A stretch of 64,000 nucleotides of DNA from Mustelus asterias (Eukaryota). The stretch is taken from NCBI RefSeq assembly GCF_964213995.1, contig NW_027590144.1, forward strand, positions 1,116,001-1,180,000, written 5' to 3'. Below the pieces are notes generated by a model, which searched no databases, was not told the DNA's origin, and worked only from the letters and a program-made list of their open reading frames with translations. Made by a program: the position numbers and the translations under genes. This document shows, piece by piece, positions 1 through 45,098 of this stretch (positions within the stretch are counted from its first letter, which is position 1; each line of letters begins with the position of its first letter).

Positions 1-240
1 GACGGCAGGCAGGCAGGTAAGCAGGCCAGACGGCAGGCAGGCAGGTAAGCAGGCCAGACGGCAAGCAGGCAGGTAAGCAGGCCAGACGGCAGGCAGGCAG
101 GTAAGCAGGCCAGACGGCAGGCAGGCAGGTAAGCAGGCCAGACGGCAGGCAGGCAGGTAAGCAGGCCAGACGGCAAGCAGGCAGGTAAGCAGGCCAGACG
201 GCAGGCAGGCAGGTAAGCAGGCCAGACGGCAGGCAGGCAG
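1..240. repeat. 28-bp tandem repeat (GACGGCAGGCAGGCAGGTAAGCAGGCCA), about 8 units visible, in the Tx1 5'UTR
   Basis: Read directly; a shorter array of the same unit lies at ~7095-7250. Confidence 0.95.
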
Positions 241-420
241 GCAACAGGCAGGCCGGGCAAGGCAGGCAGCAGCTCACCTCCCTCCTTCCTCCCCGCAGGG
301 AGCGAAAAACAAACAAACCCAACAAAACAAAAACAAAAACCGGGCGTCTCCGTGAGCAAAAACGAGAGAAAAAAAAAAATAAAGGTACTCACAAAAAAAA
401 GAAAAAAAAACAAACCCACA

Positions 421-489
421 GTTTCCGCCCGGCTCCGACCCGGGCCCCCCGCTACTCGGGCGAACGTGAACTCACCCCACCCCGGAAAC
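421..489 (-). pseudogene. tRNA-Val-derived sequence in the 5' end of the tandem Tx1 copy
   Basis: Reverse complement GTTTCCG...TCACGTTCGCC...CCGGGCGGAAAC aligns end-to-end with vertebrate tRNA-Val; anticodon and B box degenerate. Confidence 0.8.
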
Positions 490-685
490 AAAGTGCAGGC
501 GCTGCCCCAGAGGAGGCACGTTTCAGGCCGTCTGAAGCTCAATTCTCATTCAGAAAGACCTCTTTTTAGGTCAAACCAAGTAAACAAACTCAAATTAAAT
601 CAGGACAAAGTAAAAGGGGCAGCTCCACAAAAAGGAGGGGGAACAGCCCGAACAGAAATCAAAATGCAAAGGAAACTTAAAAACA

Positions 686-3600
686 TCAAATTAAAATGTG
701 ATTATTAGGGTCAATAATGCACCCCAACCCCTGCGGTGCCCAGCGGGCGCGGAAAGCGTCAACCTCGCCCGTGGACACCGCATGCTCCCTCTCCAGGGAC
801 ACCTGGCCGTGAACGTAGCCGCGGTAGAGGGGAAGACAGTCAGGATGGACAGCCCCCTCGATCGCCCGCTGCCTGGACCGGTAAATGGCGCGTTTCGCCA
901 GGCCCAGGAGCAGGTTCACGAGGAGGTCGCCATCCCGACCCTCCCCTCTCCGCACCGGGTGTCCGTAGATCAGGAGCGTGGGACTGAAGTGCAAACAAAA
1001 CATCAATAAAAGGTTCTTCAGGAAAACATAAAGGGAGTGCAGCCTAAGACACTCAACATAGACATGGTCCACGGACTCCACAAGGCCACAGAAAGGGCAG
1101 TCTTCGGAGCCCGTGAACCAGTGAATCCTACGGTTGTGCGGAACTGCTGCATGCATCACCCTCCACCCCAGGTCCCCGACGTAATTGGGGGAGATCCCTC
1201 CGTAGAGGGACCTCCAGCGGGGACCTCCGCCGCCCGGCGGCAACAAGGCCCGCCAAGGTGTATCCGGGCGACAGGCGAGGAGGCGGTAGTGGAAGGTGTG
1301 CAGCAGCAGCCCGCACAGGAAACGCCTCCGCGCGGTAGAAAAAGGCACGGAGGGCATTTCCGCGAGGCGGCTCAGGCTGTGGGGCACCTCACCCAGGGGA
1401 GGGGGCTGAGGCTTTGGGCCAATGTGGAATTCCGCCCGAACAGGGGAACGCTCGGGCGGGATCCCACCGCACGCCTGTGCCGTCTCAAGTTTGCGTGCAG
1501 TTTCGGGGCCGAGCACGACCGTCCTAAGGTCTAGGATGGCTTTGGCCGCGCGCCGGACGGACGTCCCCGCGCGCTCAGCCAGCACGCGGGGACTCATCCA
1601 GCCCGCTCCTCCGCCATCGAGCACGTCCCCGATTCTGGTCACCCCGGCGTCCACAGCCCCCCTCTCCGCCAGCCACCTGAAGTTATACGGCTGGAGGAGC
1701 GGATTCCTGAGCAGCGGCTCTCGCACGAGAGCCGCTACTCCTGACGGGGGAGAGCTGCGTCGCGAGGCGACCTTGTTCCAGACAGTGAGGAGGTCCTGGT
1801 AAAAGACGGGCAACTCCTGCAGGGCGGTCGAAGCACGCCCCAGTTCGATATGCAGGAGCTGCACGTCATAATTGAGGCCGTGCCACTGGCGGAAGAAATA
1901 CGTCGCCATGGCACACCACTGTGGAGGGGGCTCAACGTAAAGGTACCTCTGCAGGGCCTGGAGGCGGAAGGTCGCTATCTGAGTGCGGAGGCACACCAGA
2001 CCTTGTCCGCCCTCCTCAAGCGGGAGATACAGGACCGCAGCAGGGACCCAGTGCAGTCGATTGCCCCAGAAGAACCGCACGAGGGTTCTCTGGATATCGG
2101 TGACAAAGCCAGGGGGAGGGGTCAAAGGGACCAGCCGGTACCACAGCATGGAGGCGACCAGCTGGTTTATGACTCGAGCTCGCGCCCCGTAGGACAGCAC
2201 TCGGAGCAGTCCTGTCCAGCGACCCAGGCGGGCGGAGACTTTGGCCTCCAGCTCCCGCCAGTTCGCCGGCCAGGATTCCTCGGCTGGGCAGAGATGGGCC
2301 CCCAAGTAGAGGAGGTTGGTCCTGCTCCAGGTGAAAGGCCTGAGCTCCTCCGGAAGGGGGTCCGTCTCCCAAGGACCGACAAGGAGTCCGGAGCACTTGG
2401 CCCAGTTGATCCTGGCGGAGGACGCGGCGGAGTACACCGCCTGGCATTCTCGCATCCTCCGCAGGTCAGCCGGGTCCGTGAACATGAGGAGCACGTCGTC
2501 GGCGTAAGCTGACAGGACCACCCCTACGTCCGGTCCGCGCAGGACCAAACCTGACAACCTCCTCCGCAAGAGGCGCAGGAATGGCTCCACGCATACGGAA
2601 TACAGTTGGCCGGACAAGGGGCAGCCCTGCCGTACTCCTCTCCCGAAGCGAAGGGGCGCCGTCAGGGACCCGTTAACCTTAATCAGACACTCTGCGGCAG
2701 AGTACAGTAATCGGATCCGGGCGACAAACTGCGTCCCGAACCCGAATGCCCGCAGAGTCCCGAGTAAATACTCGTGCTCCACCCTGTCGAACGCCTTCTC
2801 CTGATCTAATGACAAGAAGGCGCCCGACAGACCAGCCCTCTGGGTGTGATGGATTAGGTCCCGGACCAGGTGGAGATTGTCATGTATGCAACGGCCCGGG
2901 ACCGTGTAGGACTGGTCAGGGTGGATCAAGTGGTCCAGCACGGATCCAAGGCGTGAAGCCATAGCCCTGGCAAAGATTTTATAATCCGTGCTGAGGAGGG
3001 AGACCGGGCGCCAGTTCTTGAGCAGGTGGAGATCCCCCTTCTTGGGCAGCAGGGCAATGACGGCCCTGCGCCACGAAAGGGGCATCTCCCCGGTAGCGAC
3101 GCTCTCCCCCAGGACCCCCGCGTAGTCGCTCCCCAGGACGTCCCAGAACGCCCTGAAGAACTCTACTGTCAGCCCGTCCAGCCCAGGGGCCTTGCCCCGG
3201 CTGAGCCCATTTAGGGCGCCGGTCAGCTCGGCCATGGTGGTAGGGGCCTCGAGCCTGCCGACGCCCTCCGGGCTGACCTGCGGCAGGTCCTCCCACAGAA
3301 GTCTGCGGGCATCCTCGCTGGACGGATCCGGAGAGAAGAGCGAGGTGTAATACTCCCGGGCAATGGCCCGGATGCCCTCCGGATCCGAGACGGGGGAACC
3401 GTCGTCGGCCAGCAGCGTAAGGAGCTGCTGACGGTTAGCCCGCCCTCTTTCCAGCGAGTAGAAGAAGGGGGAGCCGCGGTCCAGGTCCACCCGGAACTGG
3501 AGCCGCGACCTCACGTACGCGCCGCGAGACCTGGCAAGCTGCAGGTCCCGCAGCGCGTCCTTCTTCTCCCTGTACTCCGAACGCAGGGCCGGGTCCGCGT

Positions 3601-4579
3601 CAGGCCGACTGAGACGTGCCTCCAGGTCGAGCACCTCCTTCTCCAACTCCTCGAGCCTGGATTTCCGCCTCTTTGTCGACCCCCTCGCGTACCCCTGACA
3701 GAAGGTACGGACGTGAGTCTTGCCCACATCCCACCAGAGCCTCAAGGAGGGGAAGCCTCCCCGCTTCCTTCTCCAGCCGGCCCAGAATCGACGGAACGAG
3801 TCCAGGAAGCGCTCGTCCTCCAGCAGCGTGTTGTTAAAGTGCCAGTACGCGGACCCCCGCCGGATGCGAGACGGCGCAAAGTCCGCCCACACCAGGCTGT
3901 GGTCCGTGCTCGACACCGGCCGCATGGAGACCGAGGACACGCCGGACACGTGCGCCTTCGAAATGTAAAGGCGGTCGAGCCTGGACGCTCCGACTCCAGG
4001 CCTCACGAAAGTGAAGGCGCTGGAGCCAGGATGGAGATGCCTCCAGACGTCCACCAAGTCGTGGGACCCGATCAGGTCCCGCAACTTCACCACCGCCGGA
4101 GTGCGCAGCCAGGGGCCGGTGCGGTCCCGTGCCTCGAGGAGGCAGTTGAAATCTCCCCCGAGGATAATGCATTCGCCCCCCGCGATGGTGTCGACGTGAG
4201 CGGACACTTTCTCGTAGAAAGTCGTTTGCTGCGGTCCAGCGGTCGGGGCGTAGACATTCAGCAAGTGAATGACCACGCCCCCCTCACGGACCGTCAAGTG
4301 CAGCAACCGGCCTGGCACCGGCTCCTTGACCCCCAAGATCTCCGGCTTATAACGCGGGGCCAACAAGATAGCCACCCCGCAAGAAGCGAGCGTGAGGTGG
4401 CTCATGTAGACCCCCCCTTGCCACTCCAGGAGCCATTGGGCTTCGTCTCCCGGAACGGTGTGGGTTTCCTGCAGGAAACACACCGCATACTTCCCGTCAC
4501 GGAGGACCGAGAAGTTCTGGAACCTGCGGTGTGGCTCACTGCTGCCGTTGATGTTGAGGCTGGCTATGGTCACCTTCAT
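686..4579 (-). CDS. Tx1 ORF2: APE endonuclease + reverse transcriptase + C-terminal CCHC (1297 aa)
   Basis: ASLNING, FLQETH, GGDFN, SRLDR, TDH (APE); PGLDG, WRPVSLL, DQEKAFD, RQGCPLS, AYADD, YLG (RT); CPFC-x8-H-x4-C. Confidence 0.97.
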   Translation of the reverse strand: MKVTIASLNINGSSEPHRRFQNFSVLRDGKYAVCFLQETHTVPGDEAQWLLEWQGGVYMSHLTLASCGVAILLAPRYKPEILGVKEPVPGRLLHLTVREGGVVIHLLNVYAPTAGPQQTTFYEKVSAHVDTIAGGECIILGGDFNCLLEARDRTGPWLRTPAVVKLRDLIGSHDLVDVWRHLHPGSSAFTFVRPGVGASRLDRLYISKAHVSGVSSVSMRPVSSTDHSLVWADFAPSRIRRGSAYWHFNNTLLEDERFLDSFRRFWAGWRRKRGGFPSLRLWWDVGKTHVRTFCQGYARGSTKRRKSRLEELEKEVLDLEARLSRPDADPALRSEYREKKDALRDLQLARSRGAYVRSRLQFRVDLDRGSPFFYSLERGRANRQQLLTLLADDGSPVSDPEGIRAIAREYYTSLFSPDPSSEDARRLLWEDLPQVSPEGVGRLEAPTTMAELTGALNGLSRGKAPGLDGLTVEFFRAFWDVLGSDYAGVLGESVATGEMPLSWRRAVIALLPKKGDLHLLKNWRPVSLLSTDYKIFARAMASRLGSVLDHLIHPDQSYTVPGRCIHDNLHLVRDLIHHTQRAGLSGAFLSLDQEKAFDRVEHEYLLGTLRAFGFGTQFVARIRLLYSAAECLIKVNGSLTAPLRFGRGVRQGCPLSGQLYSVCVEPFLRLLRRRLSGLVLRGPDVGVVLSAYADDVLLMFTDPADLRRMRECQAVYSAASSARINWAKCSGLLVGPWETDPLPEELRPFTWSRTNLLYLGAHLCPAEESWPANWRELEAKVSARLGRWTGLLRVLSYGARARVINQLVASMLWYRLVPLTPPPGFVTDIQRTLVRFFWGNRLHWVPAAVLYLPLEEGGQGLVCLRTQIATFRLQALQRYLYVEPPPQWCAMATYFFRQWHGLNYDVQLLHIELGRASTALQELPVFYQDLLTVWNKVASRRSSPPSGVAALVREPLLRNPLLQPYNFRWLAERGAVDAGVTRIGDVLDGGGAGWMSPRVLAERAGTSVRRAAKAILDLRTVVLGPETARKLETAQACGGIPPERSPVRAEFHIGPKPQPPPLGEVPHSLSRLAEMPSVPFSTARRRFLCGLLLHTFHYRLLACRPDTPWRALLPPGGGGPRWRSLYGGISPNYVGDLGWRVMHAAVPHNRRIHWFTGSEDCPFCGLVESVDHVYVECLRLHSLYVFLKNLLLMFCLHFSPTLLIYGHPVRRGEGRDGDLLVNLLLGLAKRAIYRSRQRAIEGAVHPDCLPLYRGYVHGQVSLEREHAVSTGEVDAFRARWAPQGLGCIIDPNNHILI

Positions 4580-4607
4580 GTCAGCAGCTTTGTGCCACCG
4601 TCACCAC

Positions 4608-6701
4608 TTAACTAGGTGTGTGGGGGGGCGCTGGCGCAATTCTCACCAGTCCACCCCCCACCTTTTCGAGCCTGTGGAGGAACCGCAGTACCCAGCGCCG
4701 CTCTATTTTCTCCAGGCCCGCGGAGGCATGCGAGCATGCCTTCACGGACCGGACGAGCTGCGCCAGGTCCGGCCAGCGGCCGAGGGCTAGCCGGATTATG
4801 TCGGAGCGACCGGAATGGCTACGGATAAAGACCCTGAGGTCCTTGGAGGGGATGAGGGACGACTCGGTGGGGGGCACGAGGGAGTCCCCCGCCTCGCTCT
4901 GGGCAGACTCTGAAAGTGTCCCCGTGCCCTCCACCGAGCCGCTGACCTCCTCAGGGCGGTCGCCCCTCGACTCCGAGTCCCCCGCCGCAGGACGTACGGC
5001 GGGCGGCACGGAGCCACCAACTAGCCCTAGCCCCTCCCCGATCCCACCCCCAGGATCGGTGGAGGAGGGGTTCCCCCCGGGCTCACCTTTCCCGGATTGC
5101 GGGCCCCCGTGCGGCGGCGGCCCAGCCGCCCCCTCCGCCCCAGACGCTTGGACACCCCCCAGGTCCGGTGTATCCTTCGGACTGAGGTTGGGGATGTCCA
5201 GCGTCCAAGGTCGGGACGGAGAGGACGAGTGGATCGTCTCTTCGCCACCGCCGCACGAGGACATGAACATTGGAGTGTCGCCCCAGTCCCCCGACAGACT
5301 GAAGAAGAACTCCGGGTTGTAACCGGCCGGGTGGAACGGAACCGTGGGGGCCCCGCTGCCACCCGGCCCCGGACACTCCTCGCCGGGGGACTGAGGCAAC
5401 ACATGCTTGGATTTACAGGGTGCCTTGCCCCCTTTTTTCTGGGGACAAGGCACAAAGACAGGTGGGGGCACGGCAGGAGATGACTCACAAGGGGGGAGGG
5501 GCACGCAGACCTCGAACTCTACGGTGCCCGAGGGGCCCCGCCTCTTTTTGTTAACCTGCCCTCGGGCAGGCGAGGCCCCTCGCCCTCCGCCCCTCTTCGC
5601 CTTGCCGCGCCCCCCCTGCTCTCCCGTCACTTCCCCCCGAGGTGGCGGCGTCGCCAGTTTTGCCGGCTCGGGGTCGCTTACCCCCCCATGCTCGGGCCCA
5701 TGATCCCGGGCGCCGGACCCAGCACGAGGCCCCGGAGAGCCCACGGGCCCGGCAGATGGTGGTGGTGGGGGGGGTGCGCAGGTGGAGACTGAGGCGGTCC
5801 CCGAGCCGGCTGCCGGGGTGGTTGGGGTGTTTTCCCTGGGGGCCGGGGTTCCGGTACCCCCCTTCTTTTTTGTAGGTCCTTTATGGGCCTTTTGGCCGCG
5901 CGGGGGCTCCGCTCCCCCCCCGCCGGCAGCTGAGGTGGCAGCTGCTGCCGGCGTGGCCTCCCCTCGCGGGGGGGCAGATGGTACTCGCTTGGGGGGAGAG
6001 GGGGCTGCGGTGCCAGCTGCGGCCGCCTTGGGTTGGTGGTCGGCGGCCTTGGAGACGGGGCAGTTTTTCCTCACGTGCCCCGCCTCCTTACAGGCATGGC
6101 ACCGCACACCGTCCGCGGACCAAAAGACCCGGTACGTGGTCCCCTCGTGGGGGACATTGAAACCTCCCTCCAGTTCCTCCTCCCGGGCCAGGCGGACAAA
6201 AACCTGGCGCCGGAAGGAGTATATGTGGCGGAGGGAGGGGTCCCGAAGGCCGAGCGGGATCGGCTGCACCCCGGACCTGACCTCCCCCAGTAGATGGAGG
6301 TGGGGGAGGAGGAGCTCACTCGGTAGGAAGGGCGGGACGTTCGATATTACTATCTTGTGGGCGGTGGCCTCCAAAGGGTCCACCGCCAGGAACGTCCCGC
6401 CCACCGTGAGCCCCTTTTCCAGGGCGAGGCGAACCGCCCGCTCGGCCTTCAGGAAGAATACGGCCCGGCCGTACATCTTTGAGGCCGCGACAATGGCTGA
6501 GGGGCCGACAACCCCAGCCATTGCCTTAACGCAGGCCTCGATAGACATGTCGGGGTGGGCGTAGCACTTCACCCCGAGCTGCCGCGTGATTAAAGAGAAT
6601 GGCGGCAGGGCCTTGGGAGCGGCGGGGGCTCTGGCAGCCGCCACGCCCGCATAGGTGGGCCGAGAAGGCCCTGCCACCGGCGACGCTGGTGATGTCGCCA
6701 T
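4608..6701 (-). CDS. Tx1 ORF1 nucleic-acid-binding protein with CCHC zinc knuckle (697 aa)
   Basis: Tx1-type N-terminal region (ASKMYGRAVFFL, ISNVPPFLP, SFRRQV), knuckle CHACKEAGHVRKNC, long Pro/Gly-rich C-terminus; immediately upstream of ORF2. Confidence 0.92.
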   Translation of the reverse strand: MATSPASPVAGPSRPTYAGVAAARAPAAPKALPPFSLITRQLGVKCYAHPDMSIEACVKAMAGVVGPSAIVAASKMYGRAVFFLKAERAVRLALEKGLTVGGTFLAVDPLEATAHKIVISNVPPFLPSELLLPHLHLLGEVRSGVQPIPLGLRDPSLRHIYSFRRQVFVRLAREEELEGGFNVPHEGTTYRVFWSADGVRCHACKEAGHVRKNCPVSKAADHQPKAAAAGTAAPSPPKRVPSAPPRGEATPAAAATSAAGGGGAEPPRGQKAHKGPTKKKGGTGTPAPRENTPTTPAAGSGTASVSTCAPPPPPPSAGPVGSPGPRAGSGARDHGPEHGGVSDPEPAKLATPPPRGEVTGEQGGRGKAKRGGGRGASPARGQVNKKRRGPSGTVEFEVCVPLPPCESSPAVPPPVFVPCPQKKGGKAPCKSKHVLPQSPGEECPGPGGSGAPTVPFHPAGYNPEFFFSLSGDWGDTPMFMSSCGGGEETIHSSSPSRPWTLDIPNLSPKDTPDLGGVQASGAEGAAGPPPHGGPQSGKGEPGGNPSSTDPGGGIGEGLGLVGGSVPPAVRPAAGDSESRGDRPEEVSGSVEGTGTLSESAQSEAGDSLVPPTESSLIPSKDLRVFIRSHSGRSDIIRLALGRWPDLAQLVRSVKACSHASAGLEKIERRWVLRFLHRLEKVGGGLVRIAPAPPHTPS

Positions 6702-7094
6702 TGTATCAGGGGAAGTGCTACACCCACCCCGAGACTGCCCAGATGCACGGCAGGGCGTATGTGGGATGGGGAAGATAAGGCAGGGTGGGGTAGGCGGGGA
6801 AGGGTGTAGGTGCTCTCTCCTCGGAGCGAGAGAGGGAGAGAGGAGGTTGGAGGAGCAGGAGGGAGATGAGGCACAAGGCCGGTGCCCCAGTCAGGAGGGA
6901 AAAGGGGAGGGGGTGCCGGTCCCGGGGGCAGCAGTAGTGGGTAGGGGAAATAGGAAAGGTCTTCACCCCCCCCCACTGCAGATGGAAAAGAGACAGTCCA
7001 AACGCCTTCGCCCCCCCCCCCTCTCCTCCAGTCACTCCCTGTCCTCTCTTCCTCCCCCCCCCCCCCGGGAGAGCGCACCCTCCAGAGGCCGGAT

Positions 7095-7270
7095 GGCAGG
7101 CAAGCAGGCAGTCAGGCAGTCCAGACGGCAGGCAGCCCAGACGGCAGGCAGGCAGGTAGGTAAGCAGGCCAGACGGCAGGCAGGCAGGTAAGCAGGCCAG
7201 ACGGCAGGCAGGCAGGTAAGCAGGCCAGACGGCAGGCAGGCAGGCAACAGGCAGGCCGGGCAAGGCAGGC
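7095..7270. repeat. GGCA-rich / 28-bp tandem repeat in the Tx1 5'UTR
   Basis: Same unit as 1-240, with fewer copies. Confidence 0.9.
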
Positions 7271-7420
7271 AGCAGCTCACCTCCCTCCTTCCTCCCCGCA
7301 GGGAGCCAAGAACAAACAAAACAAAACAAAACAAACAGAACCGGGCGTCTTCTTAAACAAACTGAAAAACAAAGTGTGTTACTCACAAACCAAACAAAAA
7401 AAAAGAAAGCAAGTCCAAAA

Positions 7421-7490
7421 GTTTCCGCCCGGCTCCGACCCGGGGCCCCCCGCTACTCGGGCGAACGTGAAACCACTTCACCCCGGAAAC
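7421..7490 (-). pseudogene. tRNA-Val-derived head of the full-length Tx1 copy
   Basis: RC GTTTCCGGGGTGAAGTGGTTTCACGTTCGCC...CCGGGCGGAAAC; acceptor stem GTTTCCG/CGGAAAC intact, B box mutated. Confidence 0.82.
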
Positions 7491-7555
7491 AAAGTGCAGG
7501 CGCTGCCCCAGAGGAGGCACGTTTCAGGCCGTCTGAAGCTCAATGTTCATTCAGA

Positions 7556-8063
7556 GAGAGAGAAGCAGCAGCAGCTTTGCTGGACAGGAATGAGCAGCTG
7601 AACAAGCTCATTGTCCACTTCCGCATTCAGACAATGAGGAGCTGTGATTGGCTGGAGGAGCCCAGACGTCCGGTCCCCCAGGGTTCCCATTGGTCAATGC
7701 CCCGCAGACAGACAATGAGGGGCGGAGCCCCACGTGGGGGTGGGCGGGACTTTGCCCTCCAGCCGCGCTGAGCTGTTGTCCAATGGGGCAGGCTGGAAGA
7801 CCCGGACAGACAATGGTCAGTGCGCCGGCTCTGTCCCGGGCCCCGCCCCACACCCGCACATTCCACATAACGCGCATCCTCCGAAATCCACACATGCTCA
7901 TTCCCCAAATTCCGCCAATGTGCCCAAATTCCGACTCACTGCCTCTCACCGTAGCCAATGGGAAGTGTTGGAACACCGGAAGGACTCTGGTCCTTGTGTG
8001 AATGAAGATTGAGCTTCAGACGGACTCAAACTTCCTCCTTAAAAGAGGCCAATATCTGTGAGT
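7556..8063. promoter_or_regulatory. Bidirectional ZNF promoter P1 and plus-strand non-coding exon 1 (donor GTGAGT at 8058)
   Basis: Several CCAAT/ATTGG boxes, GC boxes, CACGTG, ACTTCCG; homologous to 30750-31000 and 44800-44970; leader GAATGAA-ATTGAGCTTCAGAC present in both orientations. Confidence 0.65.
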
Positions 8064-8356
8064 AAAACACTTTCTATTCTTCCCCTTTCCATTTATTTTC
8101 TCATTCTGCGGGAAATTGGGGACTTGCAGCAACTGAAGGGAAAGGAAGTGAATCCAGGGAGGCTGCAGACTCTGGAAAGGTTGGTCCAGGTCTCTCTCTC
8201 TCTCTTAAAGACATTGACATCCTTTGCTCCCTCAGCTTGACACATTGATTTGTCTGGCTAAAAGGATGATCACTTTCCTAATGTTCCTTTCCTAATGTCC
8301 CTTTCCTAATGTTTCCCAGGAGATGACTGACATTTAAGGGGACAGTAAATTAATAT

Positions 8357-30572: not shown

Positions 30573-30629
30573 GAATGAGAAAAGCAATGGAAAGGGGGAG
30601 AAAAGAAAGTGTTTTACTCACAGATGTTG

Positions 30630-30733
30630 CCTCTTTTCAGGCCAAACCAAATAAACAAACTGAAGTTAAATCAGTAAACAGACTAGACAGTGCAAAGTTA
30701 CTGCCGTGACTCGGATTCGAACCGAGGTTGCTG
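30630..30733 (-). mobile_element. Candidate Tx1-mobilised SINE: tRNA-His 3' half (30702-30733) + spacer + Tx1-like 3' tail (30630-30674)
   Basis: RC CAGCAACCTCGGTTCGAATCCGAGTCACGGCA matches the 3' 32 nt of vertebrate tRNA-His-GTG; tail is 40/45 identical to the Tx1 terminus at 559-603. Confidence 0.75.
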
Positions 30734-31190
30734 GAGGAAGTTTGAGTCTGTCTGAAGCTGAATCTTCACTCAGAGGGAGAGGAGCAGAACCAACAACAAT
30801 GAAGGAAGCTTCACGCAGCCATTAACACAAGGCCCGGTCTCCGATTGGCTGAAGGACCAGCACCCATCCGGTCCTCCACGGGTTACCATTGGTCAATCCG
30901 CCGCATGTGGACAATGAGGGGGCGGAACCCGAGCCCACGTGGGGGTGGGCGGGGCTTTGCCCGCCAGCCGCGCTGAGCTGGTGTCCAATCCGCAGTATGC
31001 TCCTTCTGTAACCAGTGATATTGCTGCCAATGGGACACTGTGTGCTGGGAACGCCCCTCTGAGTCATTGTGACGGCACAATGGAGCCCTGTCTGAATCAG
31101 CCAATAGCAATCACTCTGCTCCGCGGTGACGTCTCCGGGTTCAGGCGTGCGGACCCGGGAGCCCCGCCCCCACCCATTGTTCCCCCAGTC
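30734..31190. promoter_or_regulatory. Bidirectional ZNF promoter P2 (between ZNF-B and ZNF-C)
   Basis: CCAAT, GC boxes and CACGTG block homologous to 7640-7790. Confidence 0.65.
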
Positions 31191-44127: not shown

Positions 44128-44772
44128 GGTGCGGGTGCCCTTGTGACTCTCCAGGTTTGGCTATCAGTTGAAGCCTCGTCCACATACAGAACATGGGTAC
44201 AGTCTCTCCCCACTGTGAATGCTGAGATGTTTTTTTCACGTTGTGTAACTGGTTAAAGTTCTTTCCACACTCAGCGCACTGGAACACTGTCTGTAAATCC
44301 TCACCCTCTGATATCCTGTAAAAGGAATTTACAAAAGTCATCAGTGTCAGTACAGGAGAGAAATTCAGAACAGACAATTTCTATGGAACATTCTTTCCTT
44401 TCTCATTCCCCAAAAATCATAAATCTCCATCCCACACACTCTCCCTCCATTCTCACTCTGCTGTATCTAATATTCACCCTCCCAATTCTCCTGAAGGTGC
44501 TGATTGAGGCTGATTGACAGATCCATGCTCACTGCTTCCTGTTCTGGACAAAAAAAGCTGCAAATCTTCAAGCTGACAGCCACGTTAAAGCTTTACAATT
44601 GGACATAAATGAGCAGACTGATGATGGTGTAATACACTGTATCACCTGGTTAGAGAAACATGAAGAATGTGAGGAGGATCTTTATTGAAGCAGCGAGTGG
44701 TGACCTGGAAGTTAAAAATTCAACTCCAGAATGAGAAAAGAAATGGAAGCGGGGAGAGAAGAAAGTGTTTTA

Positions 44773-45098
44773 CTCACAGATGTCGGAGAGACAGGAGGAA
44801 GTTTGAGCCTGTCTGAAGCTCAATGTTCATTCAGAGAGGGAGCAGCAGCAACTTTGCTGGGCAGGAATGAGCAACTGAACAAGCTCATTGTCCACTTCCG
44901 CATTCAGACAATGGGGAGCTCTGATTGGCTGGAGGACCAGAGTCCTTCCGGTCCTCCAACTCCCCCATTGGTCAGCACCTCAGCATAAGGACCAGGGGGT
45001 GGGCACTCTACCGCACGTGCGCAGCTTCCCCTCTCCCTTGGACATGCGCAGCCCTGGGCCTTGGGGGAGTGGACAGAGTACAACTTCCTCCTGTGAGT
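44773..45098. promoter_or_regulatory. Bidirectional ZNF promoter P3 with both exon-1 ends uninterrupted (donors 44778 minus, 45093 plus)
   Basis: 44810-44940 is nearly identical to 7530-7660 and serves as the empty-site reference. Confidence 0.7.

What the first reader, a model, noticed from the sequence alone, without database searches (positions are those of the whole stretch)
520..603. Head-to-tail Tx1 junction that preserves the host ZNF transcript leader
Seen: on the minus strand the element ends ...CCTAAAAAGAGG with no poly(A) and continues directly into TCTTTCTGAATGAGAATTGAGCTTCAGACGG, the ZNF exon-1 leader, and then the next element head. The two heads are diverged (e.g. 300-420 vs 7300-7420, repeat number), so this is not a simple recent duplication. 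Inference: reverse transcriptase copied one RNA to its 5' end (host TSS near 558/7558) and jumped to the 3' end of a second RNA, or elements insert upstream of each other. Either way the junction would mark the TSS.
Basis: partly seen in the sequence, partly recalled or inferred. Interest (0 to 1): 0.7.

Follow-up and report, generated by a model that had tools for sequence, protein, structure and literature searches.

The report
Stacked jumping genes in zinc-finger exons
Two copies of a jumping gene sit head to tail in the first exon of a zinc-finger gene, likely because the element cuts the same short target again and again and carries its own altered copy of that exon, so the joint likely marks the cut site and not the start of the host gene's RNA.

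Summary
The junction is real (559/558), but it is not a template jump and does not mark the TSS. Of 95 tail-plus-leader junctions in this genome, 63 run into another element head and 32 into ordinary host exon 1, with the same spread of cut positions. It is therefore the normal 3' insertion junction of a site-specific Tx1, repeated at a regenerated target, as in Drosophila R1 arrays. The 'host leader' is element-borne: its GAGAA allele precedes an element head in 42 of 43 copies. It begins a diverged copy of all of exon 1 plus a tRNA-Val relic. A spliced ZNF retrocopy begins 25-34 nt upstream of the junction base, so the host TSS lies further upstream. The two window copies differ by 1.65% in ORF1, and the upstream one looks younger. 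Also new here: a sister subfamily hits a second site in the same exon (104 copies), and the head carries a replacement splice donor, with one retrocopy as evidence of use. The scan reported ZNF exon-1 targeting before on other DNA; my paper searches did not find it.

The parts
559..570 (-). 3' terminus of the upstream Tx1 copy, no poly(A)
   Evidence: the same end precedes unrelated flanks at 937 matches
558..559 (-). junction = inferred bottom-strand nick, site 1, in the TC tract of the ZNF leader
   Evidence: same register in 63 head-type and 32 host-type junctions
530..558 (-). leader copy in front of the downstream head, with the element-linked GAGAA allele (GA at 545-544)
   Evidence: 42 of 43 GAGAA leaders precede an element head; none among 60 distinct host-type leaders listed
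493..529 (-). diverged copy of the rest of ZNF exon 1 inside the element head; site 2 and the host splice donor are lost
   Evidence: alignment A1, coordinates
421..489 (-). tRNA-Val relic in the downstream head
   Evidence: aligns to sister-subfamily heads, 3 of 6 of which ARAGORN calls tRNA-Val; not detected here by Rfam
273..285 (-). splice-donor-like site of the downstream head (intron would start at 277)
1..270 (-). expanded 28-bp repeat of the downstream head; the copy continues about 1.9 kb beyond the window and is cut inside ORF1
571..685 (-). 3' UTR of the upstream copy
686..4579 (-). ORF2, 1297 aa, AP-type endonuclease + reverse transcriptase
   Evidence: 49% identical to Xenopus Tx1 ORF2 over its length
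4608..6701 (-). ORF1, 697 aa, with one CCHC knuckle read by eye
   Evidence: no Pfam hit
6976..6992 (-). splice-acceptor-like pyrimidine tract + CAG in the 5' UTR
   Evidence: 70 of 73 sites keep the AG; no copy with a precisely removed intron
7276..7288 (-). splice-donor-like site of the upstream head (intron would start at 7280)
   Evidence: 76 of 82 fetched heads have it; retrocopy L108 is polyadenylated exactly at it
7421..7530 (-). upstream head: exon-1 relic and tRNA-Val relic
7531..7560 (-). leader copy at the promoter-side junction (host-type GAACA allele)
7561..7700 (-). host ZNF promoter region (CCAAT at 7651 and 7693); the first part is probably transcribed leader
   Evidence: paralogous to the empty site at 44.8-45.0 kb
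44772..44870 (-). empty paralogous exon 1 with donor, upstream of a ZNF ORF on the same strand
8000..8063 (+). paralogous exon 1 with a 12-nt match to the Tx1 end at site 2, probably a relic
30616..30780 (-). paralogous exon 1 with a short old Tx1 tail at site 2

Best explanation
The junction is a Tx1 3' end joined to a ZNF exon-1 leader at the same base register as in single insertions, and it likely arose when the element's endonuclease nicked a target regenerated by an earlier insertion, so that copies stack head to tail. Inferred steps: ORF2 nicks the bottom strand in the TC tract (site 1) and primes reverse transcription at the RNA 3' end. The top strand is cut about 15 nt downstream. In full-length events that overhang anneals to the cDNA of the exon-1 copy at the element's own 5' end, which gives a precise 5' joint in which most of the leader comes from the RNA. 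Each insertion leaves a TC-leader on both sides, so the next copy can land in front of an old head (probably the case here, since the upstream copy looks younger and is intact) or behind an old tail. The RNA is probably made from the host promoter or by read-through of an upstream copy. The junction marks the nick, at least 25 nt downstream of where one host mRNA began.
For: Host-type versions of the same junction: 32 of 95. Of 31 fetched, 27 reach the genomic splice donor, 3 diverge earlier and 1 was not parsed. Offsets 4/6/8/10 nt before the anchor are 6/14/39/4 in head-type and 4/10/14/4 in host-type junctions, chi-square p=0.38 (hand counts, test). 5'-truncated copies show duplications: 14-15 bp at the ZNF site (L044), and at least 11 bp in 10 of 18 dispersed TC-flanked loci. 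All 82 heads matched sit behind a ZNF promoter (32) or a tail (50). GAGAA is linked to heads, 42 of 43. In solo insertions the 5' and 3' leader copies differ in 13 of 15. Neighbours in arrays are as distant as random copies, 0.75% vs 0.77%, 11 pairs. A spliced retrocopy starts 25-34 nt upstream. Retrocopy L108 spans a junction, so read-through RNA exists. Precedent: R1 arrays separated by the target duplication (PMC2718515).
Against: No general age gradient along arrays (Wilcoxon p=0.76, 11 pairs), so the order of insertion is not settled. 2 of 11 neighbours are each other's nearest relative, and one 132-bp unit is repeated about 20 times, so local duplication also builds arrays. One old tail sits before several different host exon alleles, which points to exchange between paralogues; such exchange could also explain part of the 5'/3' leader mismatch. 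8 of 18 dispersed TC-flanked loci show no clear duplication. This locus has lost its terminal junction. Some contigs may be duplicate haplotypes, so counts are not independent events. Nicking and annealing were not tested biochemically.
Confidence: 0.8

Rival explanations
1. DNA-level exchange made the junction: unequal crossing-over or gene conversion between elements at paralogous ZNF loci, or within an array, joined an ordinary 3' junction to another copy's head. The position is still set by the original nick.
For: 2 of 11 neighbours are nearest relatives; repeated identical-truncation units at several loci; one duplicated old 1.1-kb tail precedes heads at 25 and host exons of three alleles at 3 of 30 loci; head types are scattered over the ORF1 tree.
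Against: The window's two copies are 1.65% apart and neither is among the other's six nearest of 68; most neighbours are unrelated; exchange inside a 29-bp leader would have to be frequent.
Confidence: 0.12
2. Template jump: RT copied one RNA to its 5' end and continued on the 3' end of a second RNA, so the junction records the RNA start.
For: The spacer lacks any site-2 duplication and carries an RNA-borne allele. Template switching occurs in this family: a pre-tRNA-Arg joined to a 13-nt Tx1 tail at site 2. The TC tract resembles a pyrimidine initiator (recalled, not tested).
Against: The same junction exists with genomic exon and intron behind it and with the same offsets. A host mRNA copy and a dispersed older Tx1 relative both start about 25 nt or more upstream. 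The two window copies differ in apparent age, whereas a jump inserts both at once.
Confidence: 0.07
3. Misassembly of two collapsed repeats.
For: No read set spanning the junction could be inspected.
Against: 63 such junctions on dozens of contigs with their own variants, and a dispersed retrocopy holding the junction.
Confidence: 0.01

Closest known systems
Xenopus laevis Tx1L (ORF2 = YTX2_XENLA), Tx1 clade
   Same: Two ORFs, AP endonuclease + RT, 49% identity over the whole ORF2, sequence-specific insertion.
   Different: Tx1L targets the DNA transposon Tx1D (PMC4494074, passages); this one targets the first exon of a multicopy protein-coding ZNF family and carries a diverged copy of that exon.
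Drosophila R1 tandem arrays in 28S rDNA (PMC2718515; passages and section 15 read)
   Same: Arrays at the normal site, copies separated by target sequence, 14-bp duplication, formed by insertion into the duplication of an earlier copy; target sequence on the RNA anneals to give precise 5' joints in melanogaster-type R1.
   Different: Different clade and target; the R1 spacer is the local duplication, here it is mostly the element's own allele; here copies also appear behind old tails.
Crocodilian Tx1-Mar and SINEU-3 (PMC4494074; passages read)
   Same: Tx1-group machinery; tandem copies sandwiching a duplication, read as sequential insertion; sister families preferring different positions in one target.
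   Different: Target is a Mariner relic, not a gene exon; the two sites there are hundreds of bases apart, here about 55 nt.
Kibi (TC)n-targeting Tx1 of teleosts, and Keno/Utopia in U2 genes (PMC4494074, PMC4640811; passages read)
   Same: Nick in a TC repeat (Kibi); occasional tandem insertion in a multicopy gene (Utopia).
   Different: Here the TC tract is short and part of one gene leader; relation to Kibi was not tested on a tree.

Membership tests
Tx1-clade non-LTR retrotransposon | ORF2 with N-terminal AP endonuclease and RT | tested here: met
   PF03372 residues 6-227 and PF00078 residues 512-762
Tx1-clade non-LTR retrotransposon | closest named relative is Tx1 | tested here: met
   49% to YTX2_XENLA over full length; named fish pol-like proteins at 31-38%
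Tx1-clade non-LTR retrotransposon | placement inside the clade on an RT tree with reference families | not tested
   no Repbase references at hand; no tree with named clades was built
Tx1-clade non-LTR retrotransposon | target preference with target-site duplications | tested here: met
   82 of 82 heads at the ZNF leader or behind a tail; duplications of about 12-16 bp; truncated copies also land off target
R1-type tandem array by repeated insertion | array junctions lie at the normal insertion site | tested here: met
   same offsets in head-type and host-type junctions, p=0.38
R1-type tandem array by repeated insertion | copies are independent insertions, not local duplicates | tested here: met
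   neighbour distance 0.75% vs 0.77% at random; 2 of 11 exceptions; window pair 1.65%
R1-type tandem array by repeated insertion | spacer is a pure duplication of local target DNA | tested here: not met
   spacer carries an element-linked allele
R1-type tandem array by repeated insertion | new copies enter only at the 5' side of old ones | tested here: inconclusive
   fits the window pair; no gradient over 11 pairs; old tail upstream of varied heads
RNA-to-RNA template-jump dimer | junction exists only between two element RNAs | tested here: not met
   32 of 95 continue into host exon 1
RNA-to-RNA template-jump dimer | junction base equals the RNA 5' end | tested here: not met
   host mRNA copy starts 25-34 nt upstream; an older dispersed Tx1 relative starts about 27 nt upstream. 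One example each; the 5' end of the present element's RNA was not mapped.
RNA-to-RNA template-jump dimer | TSS mapped by CAGE or 5' RACE | not testable with these tools
   no raw RNA reads listed

The most novel reading that the evidence does not exclude
A vertebrate Tx1 lineage lives in the first exon of a huge ZNF family and moved its target about 55 nt upstream inside that exon, keeping the old target as a mutated, donor-less copy in its own head. It borrows the host promoter and supplies a replacement splice donor that lets whole stacked arrays be spliced out of the ZNF mRNA, so insertion is nearly harmless.
Probability: 0.25. Interest if true: 0.75.

Novelty: new variant of a known kind. 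Interest (0 to 1): 0.5.

Why it matters
The junction itself is a known outcome of site-specific retrotransposition, so it is not a TSS marker. The system behind it matters more. A young Tx1 family (35 of 60 near-complete copies have a full ORF2) uses the non-coding first exon of protein-coding genes as its landing pad. Two sister subfamilies, 93-94% alike in the endonuclease, cut two sites about 55 nt apart, which is a ready-made pair for finding the residues that set AP-endonuclease specificity. The arrays also give dozens of natural records of how 5' ends are joined by RNA-borne homology, a step still poorly understood for vertebrate LINEs.

Tried and rejected
TSS from reads: no RNA holder was listed; the four runs laid were contigs only and show no starts. 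Splicing of exon 1 could not be shown from reads and rests on a genomic retrocopy instead. First idea that CCTAAAAAGAGG is host target sequence: rejected, it precedes unrelated flanks genome-wide. Idea that the spacer is a long pure duplication: rejected. Age gradient along arrays: none, in the 3' kilobase (13 full-length pairs read by eye) or whole bodies (11 pairs). Promoter-side copies have an intact ORF2 more often (15 of 18 vs 20 of 37 after dropping 5 rows cut by region ends; p=0.04), but duplicates inflate this and I give it little weight. A second Fisher test used a miscounted total and is not used. Linking TC-tract alleles to element bodies failed: the ORF1 tree is star-like, and the CGG allele also occurs in empty hosts. 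Rfam finds no tRNA in window 1-8300, so the relic rests on alignment. No ZNF ORF motif was found in 50 kb left of the window. Paper searches for ZNF-targeting Tx1 listed nothing on it; I read listings only, apart from the four papers cited. Repbase, Kojima and Fujiwara 2004 and all supplements were not seen and may hold this family.

Full report
Observation. The window is G000:C112:1116001-1180000 in a 3.68-Gb genome. I take it for a shark from recalled features of its ZNF genes; no call names it. An intact Tx1-like element lies on the minus strand: ORF1 6701-4608, ORF2 4579-686, with endonuclease and RT domains and 49% identity to Xenopus Tx1 ORF2. Its 3' end (570-559) has no poly(A) and joins directly to a ZNF leader (558-530) and a second head. 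The 41-nt junction is absent from 100 shuffles. The second copy is cut inside ORF1 about 1.9 kb left of the window; no tail or leader follows in the fetched 30 kb.

The 12-nt end belongs to the element. A pattern for it gives 937 matches. Of the first 100 listed, 7 are followed by TC and nearly all others by (G/A/C)CA. Dispersed TC-flanked copies are 96-100% identical to the window element, the others 90-97%, so there are two subfamilies.

The junction is an ordinary 3' junction. A search for tail plus leader gave 95 places. By my count 63 continue into an element head and 32 into host exon 1. I fetched 31 of the 32: 27 reach the genomic splice donor, 3 diverge earlier and 1 was not parsed. 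An RNA-to-RNA jump cannot produce these. The cut offsets are the same in both classes (6/14/39/4 vs 4/10/14/4, p=0.38) and stay in the register of the TC repeat. Truncated copies show a duplication that starts at this base: 14-15 bp at a ZNF site (L044), and at least 11 bp with up to one mismatch in 10 of 18 dispersed TC-flanked loci and 4 of 20 of the other class. This is what a bottom-strand nick at the junction and a top-strand nick about 15 nt downstream would give. All 82 heads matched by a head pattern lie behind a ZNF promoter (32) or a tail (50); that pattern misses a second head type and older relatives.

The leader is carried by the element. The GAGAA allele at this junction precedes an element head in 42 of 43 genome matches. 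It is absent from the 60 distinct host-type leaders among the first 100 of 187 rows (rows overlap). In 15 solo insertions the leader before the element equals the leader behind it in only 2. At L079 the switch from local to element sequence falls within the TC tract and the next few bases, judged against two empty paralogues. Alignment shows that the head is a diverged copy of the whole exon 1, with the host donor lost, followed by a tRNA-Val relic. ARAGORN calls tRNA-Val in 3 of 6 sister-subfamily heads and in 0 of 3 site-1 loci; Rfam finds nothing here.

The junction is not the TSS. A dispersed copy (L300) holds exon 1 joined to a second block that occurs apart at ZNF contigs and follows a canonical acceptor in 7 fetched loci. 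It is a spliced ZNF retrocopy, which also confirms the exon. Its match to exon 1 begins 25-34 nt upstream of the usual junction base, a lower bound for that mRNA. An older Tx1 relative on a large chromosome (one event, duplicated) begins about 27 nt upstream, read by eye. These are single examples, and no RNA reads could map the start.

How the array formed. The window pair differ by 1.65% over about 910 bp. Among 68 heads the upstream copy has a nearest relative at 0.33% and the downstream one at 1.21%. That fits a younger copy inserted in front of an older head. It is not a general rule: across 11 consecutive pairs there is no age gradient (p=0.76), neighbours are as distant as random copies (0.75% vs 0.77%), and 2 are nearest relatives. 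A segmentally duplicated locus with one old 1.1-kb tail is followed by element heads of several types at 25 of 30 loci examined (of 32 matches), by host exon at 3 and by no tail at 2. So copies also land behind old tails, or flanks are exchanged between paralogues. Retrocopy L108 holds 199 nt of tail, the junction and a head, then poly(A), between about 10-bp duplications, which shows that a junction was read through in RNA.

Second site and splice donor. A sister subfamily inserts about 10 nt before the exon-1 donor at 104 places, with 91-97% identity and 93-94% in the endonuclease region. Its heads keep a nearly intact exon 1 plus tRNA-Val. The simplest reading is that the site-1 family arose from it by a target shift of about 55 nt and kept the old exon copy; this direction is inferred and was not tested on a rooted tree. 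The head has a donor-like site in 76 of 82 fetched heads (overlapping loci counted twice), and the poly(A) of L108 starts exactly there. An acceptor-like site lies 300 nt downstream, but no copy lacks the intron. Whether the donor splices to ZNF exon 2 is untested.

Comparison. Stage and Eickbush describe R1 arrays at the normal site, separated by the 14-bp duplication and formed by insertion into it, and target sequence on the RNA that anneals at 5' joints (PMC2718515; passages and section 15). Kojima reads tandem SINEU-3 copies around a duplication as sequential insertions (PMC4494074; passages). Utopia is sometimes tandem in U2 genes (PMC4640811; passages). PMC3747384 (passages) added only clade context. 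The junction therefore works like an R1 array joint. ZNF exon-1 targeting did not turn up in six paper searches, but earlier reports of this scan describe it on other DNA of this genome; I had reached that reading before looking.

Verdict. Observation confirmed. Repeated site-specific insertion 0.80, DNA exchange 0.12, template jump 0.07, misassembly 0.01. New variant of a known kind; interest 0.5, owed to the targeting system and not to the junction as a TSS marker.

Noticed in passing
L058:9360-9496 and L062:9365-9500: A pre-tRNA-Arg with its flanks is joined to a 13-nt Tx1 tail and sits at site 2 between about 14-bp duplications: a template-switch chimera. The two loci are probably one event.
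   Followed up: partly
L108 (G000:C3, about 156.439 Mb): Polyadenylated retrocopy spanning a tandem junction and ending exactly at the head's donor-like site.
   Followed up: yes
L044, L077, L101, L116, L118, L119, L120, L121: Truncated Tx1 tails often occur as tandem units with the same 5' break, 2 to about 20 copies, mostly separated by the duplication. Either the new cDNA anneals to the resident copy or the duplication drives unequal exchange.
   Followed up: partly
L217-L234, L237-L266: A duplicated ZNF-region unit with a fixed 1.1-kb Tx1 tail (32 matches) is occupied by further elements at 25 of 30 loci, a much higher share than ordinary promoters seem to show.
   Followed up: partly
window 7543/8009, 44823/45089: ZNF first exons come in divergent pairs a few hundred bases apart, suggesting bidirectional promoters.
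   Followed up: no
L048, L053, L074, L076, L080: Truncated copies at site 1 whose 5' flank is not the ZNF promoter; large target deletions or later rearrangements.
   Followed up: no
protein P0019: A turtle gene model fuses a close Tx1 relative with KRAB and C2H2 domains; Tx1 may also sit in ZNF genes of turtles, or the model is an artefact.
   Followed up: no
L044, L061, L244, L288: Another recurrent sequence interrupts exon 1 a few bases after the leader, a possible third insertion site.
   Followed up: no
L304:5650-5720: A site-1 junction with a short inverted copy of leader sequence between tail and target.
   Followed up: no
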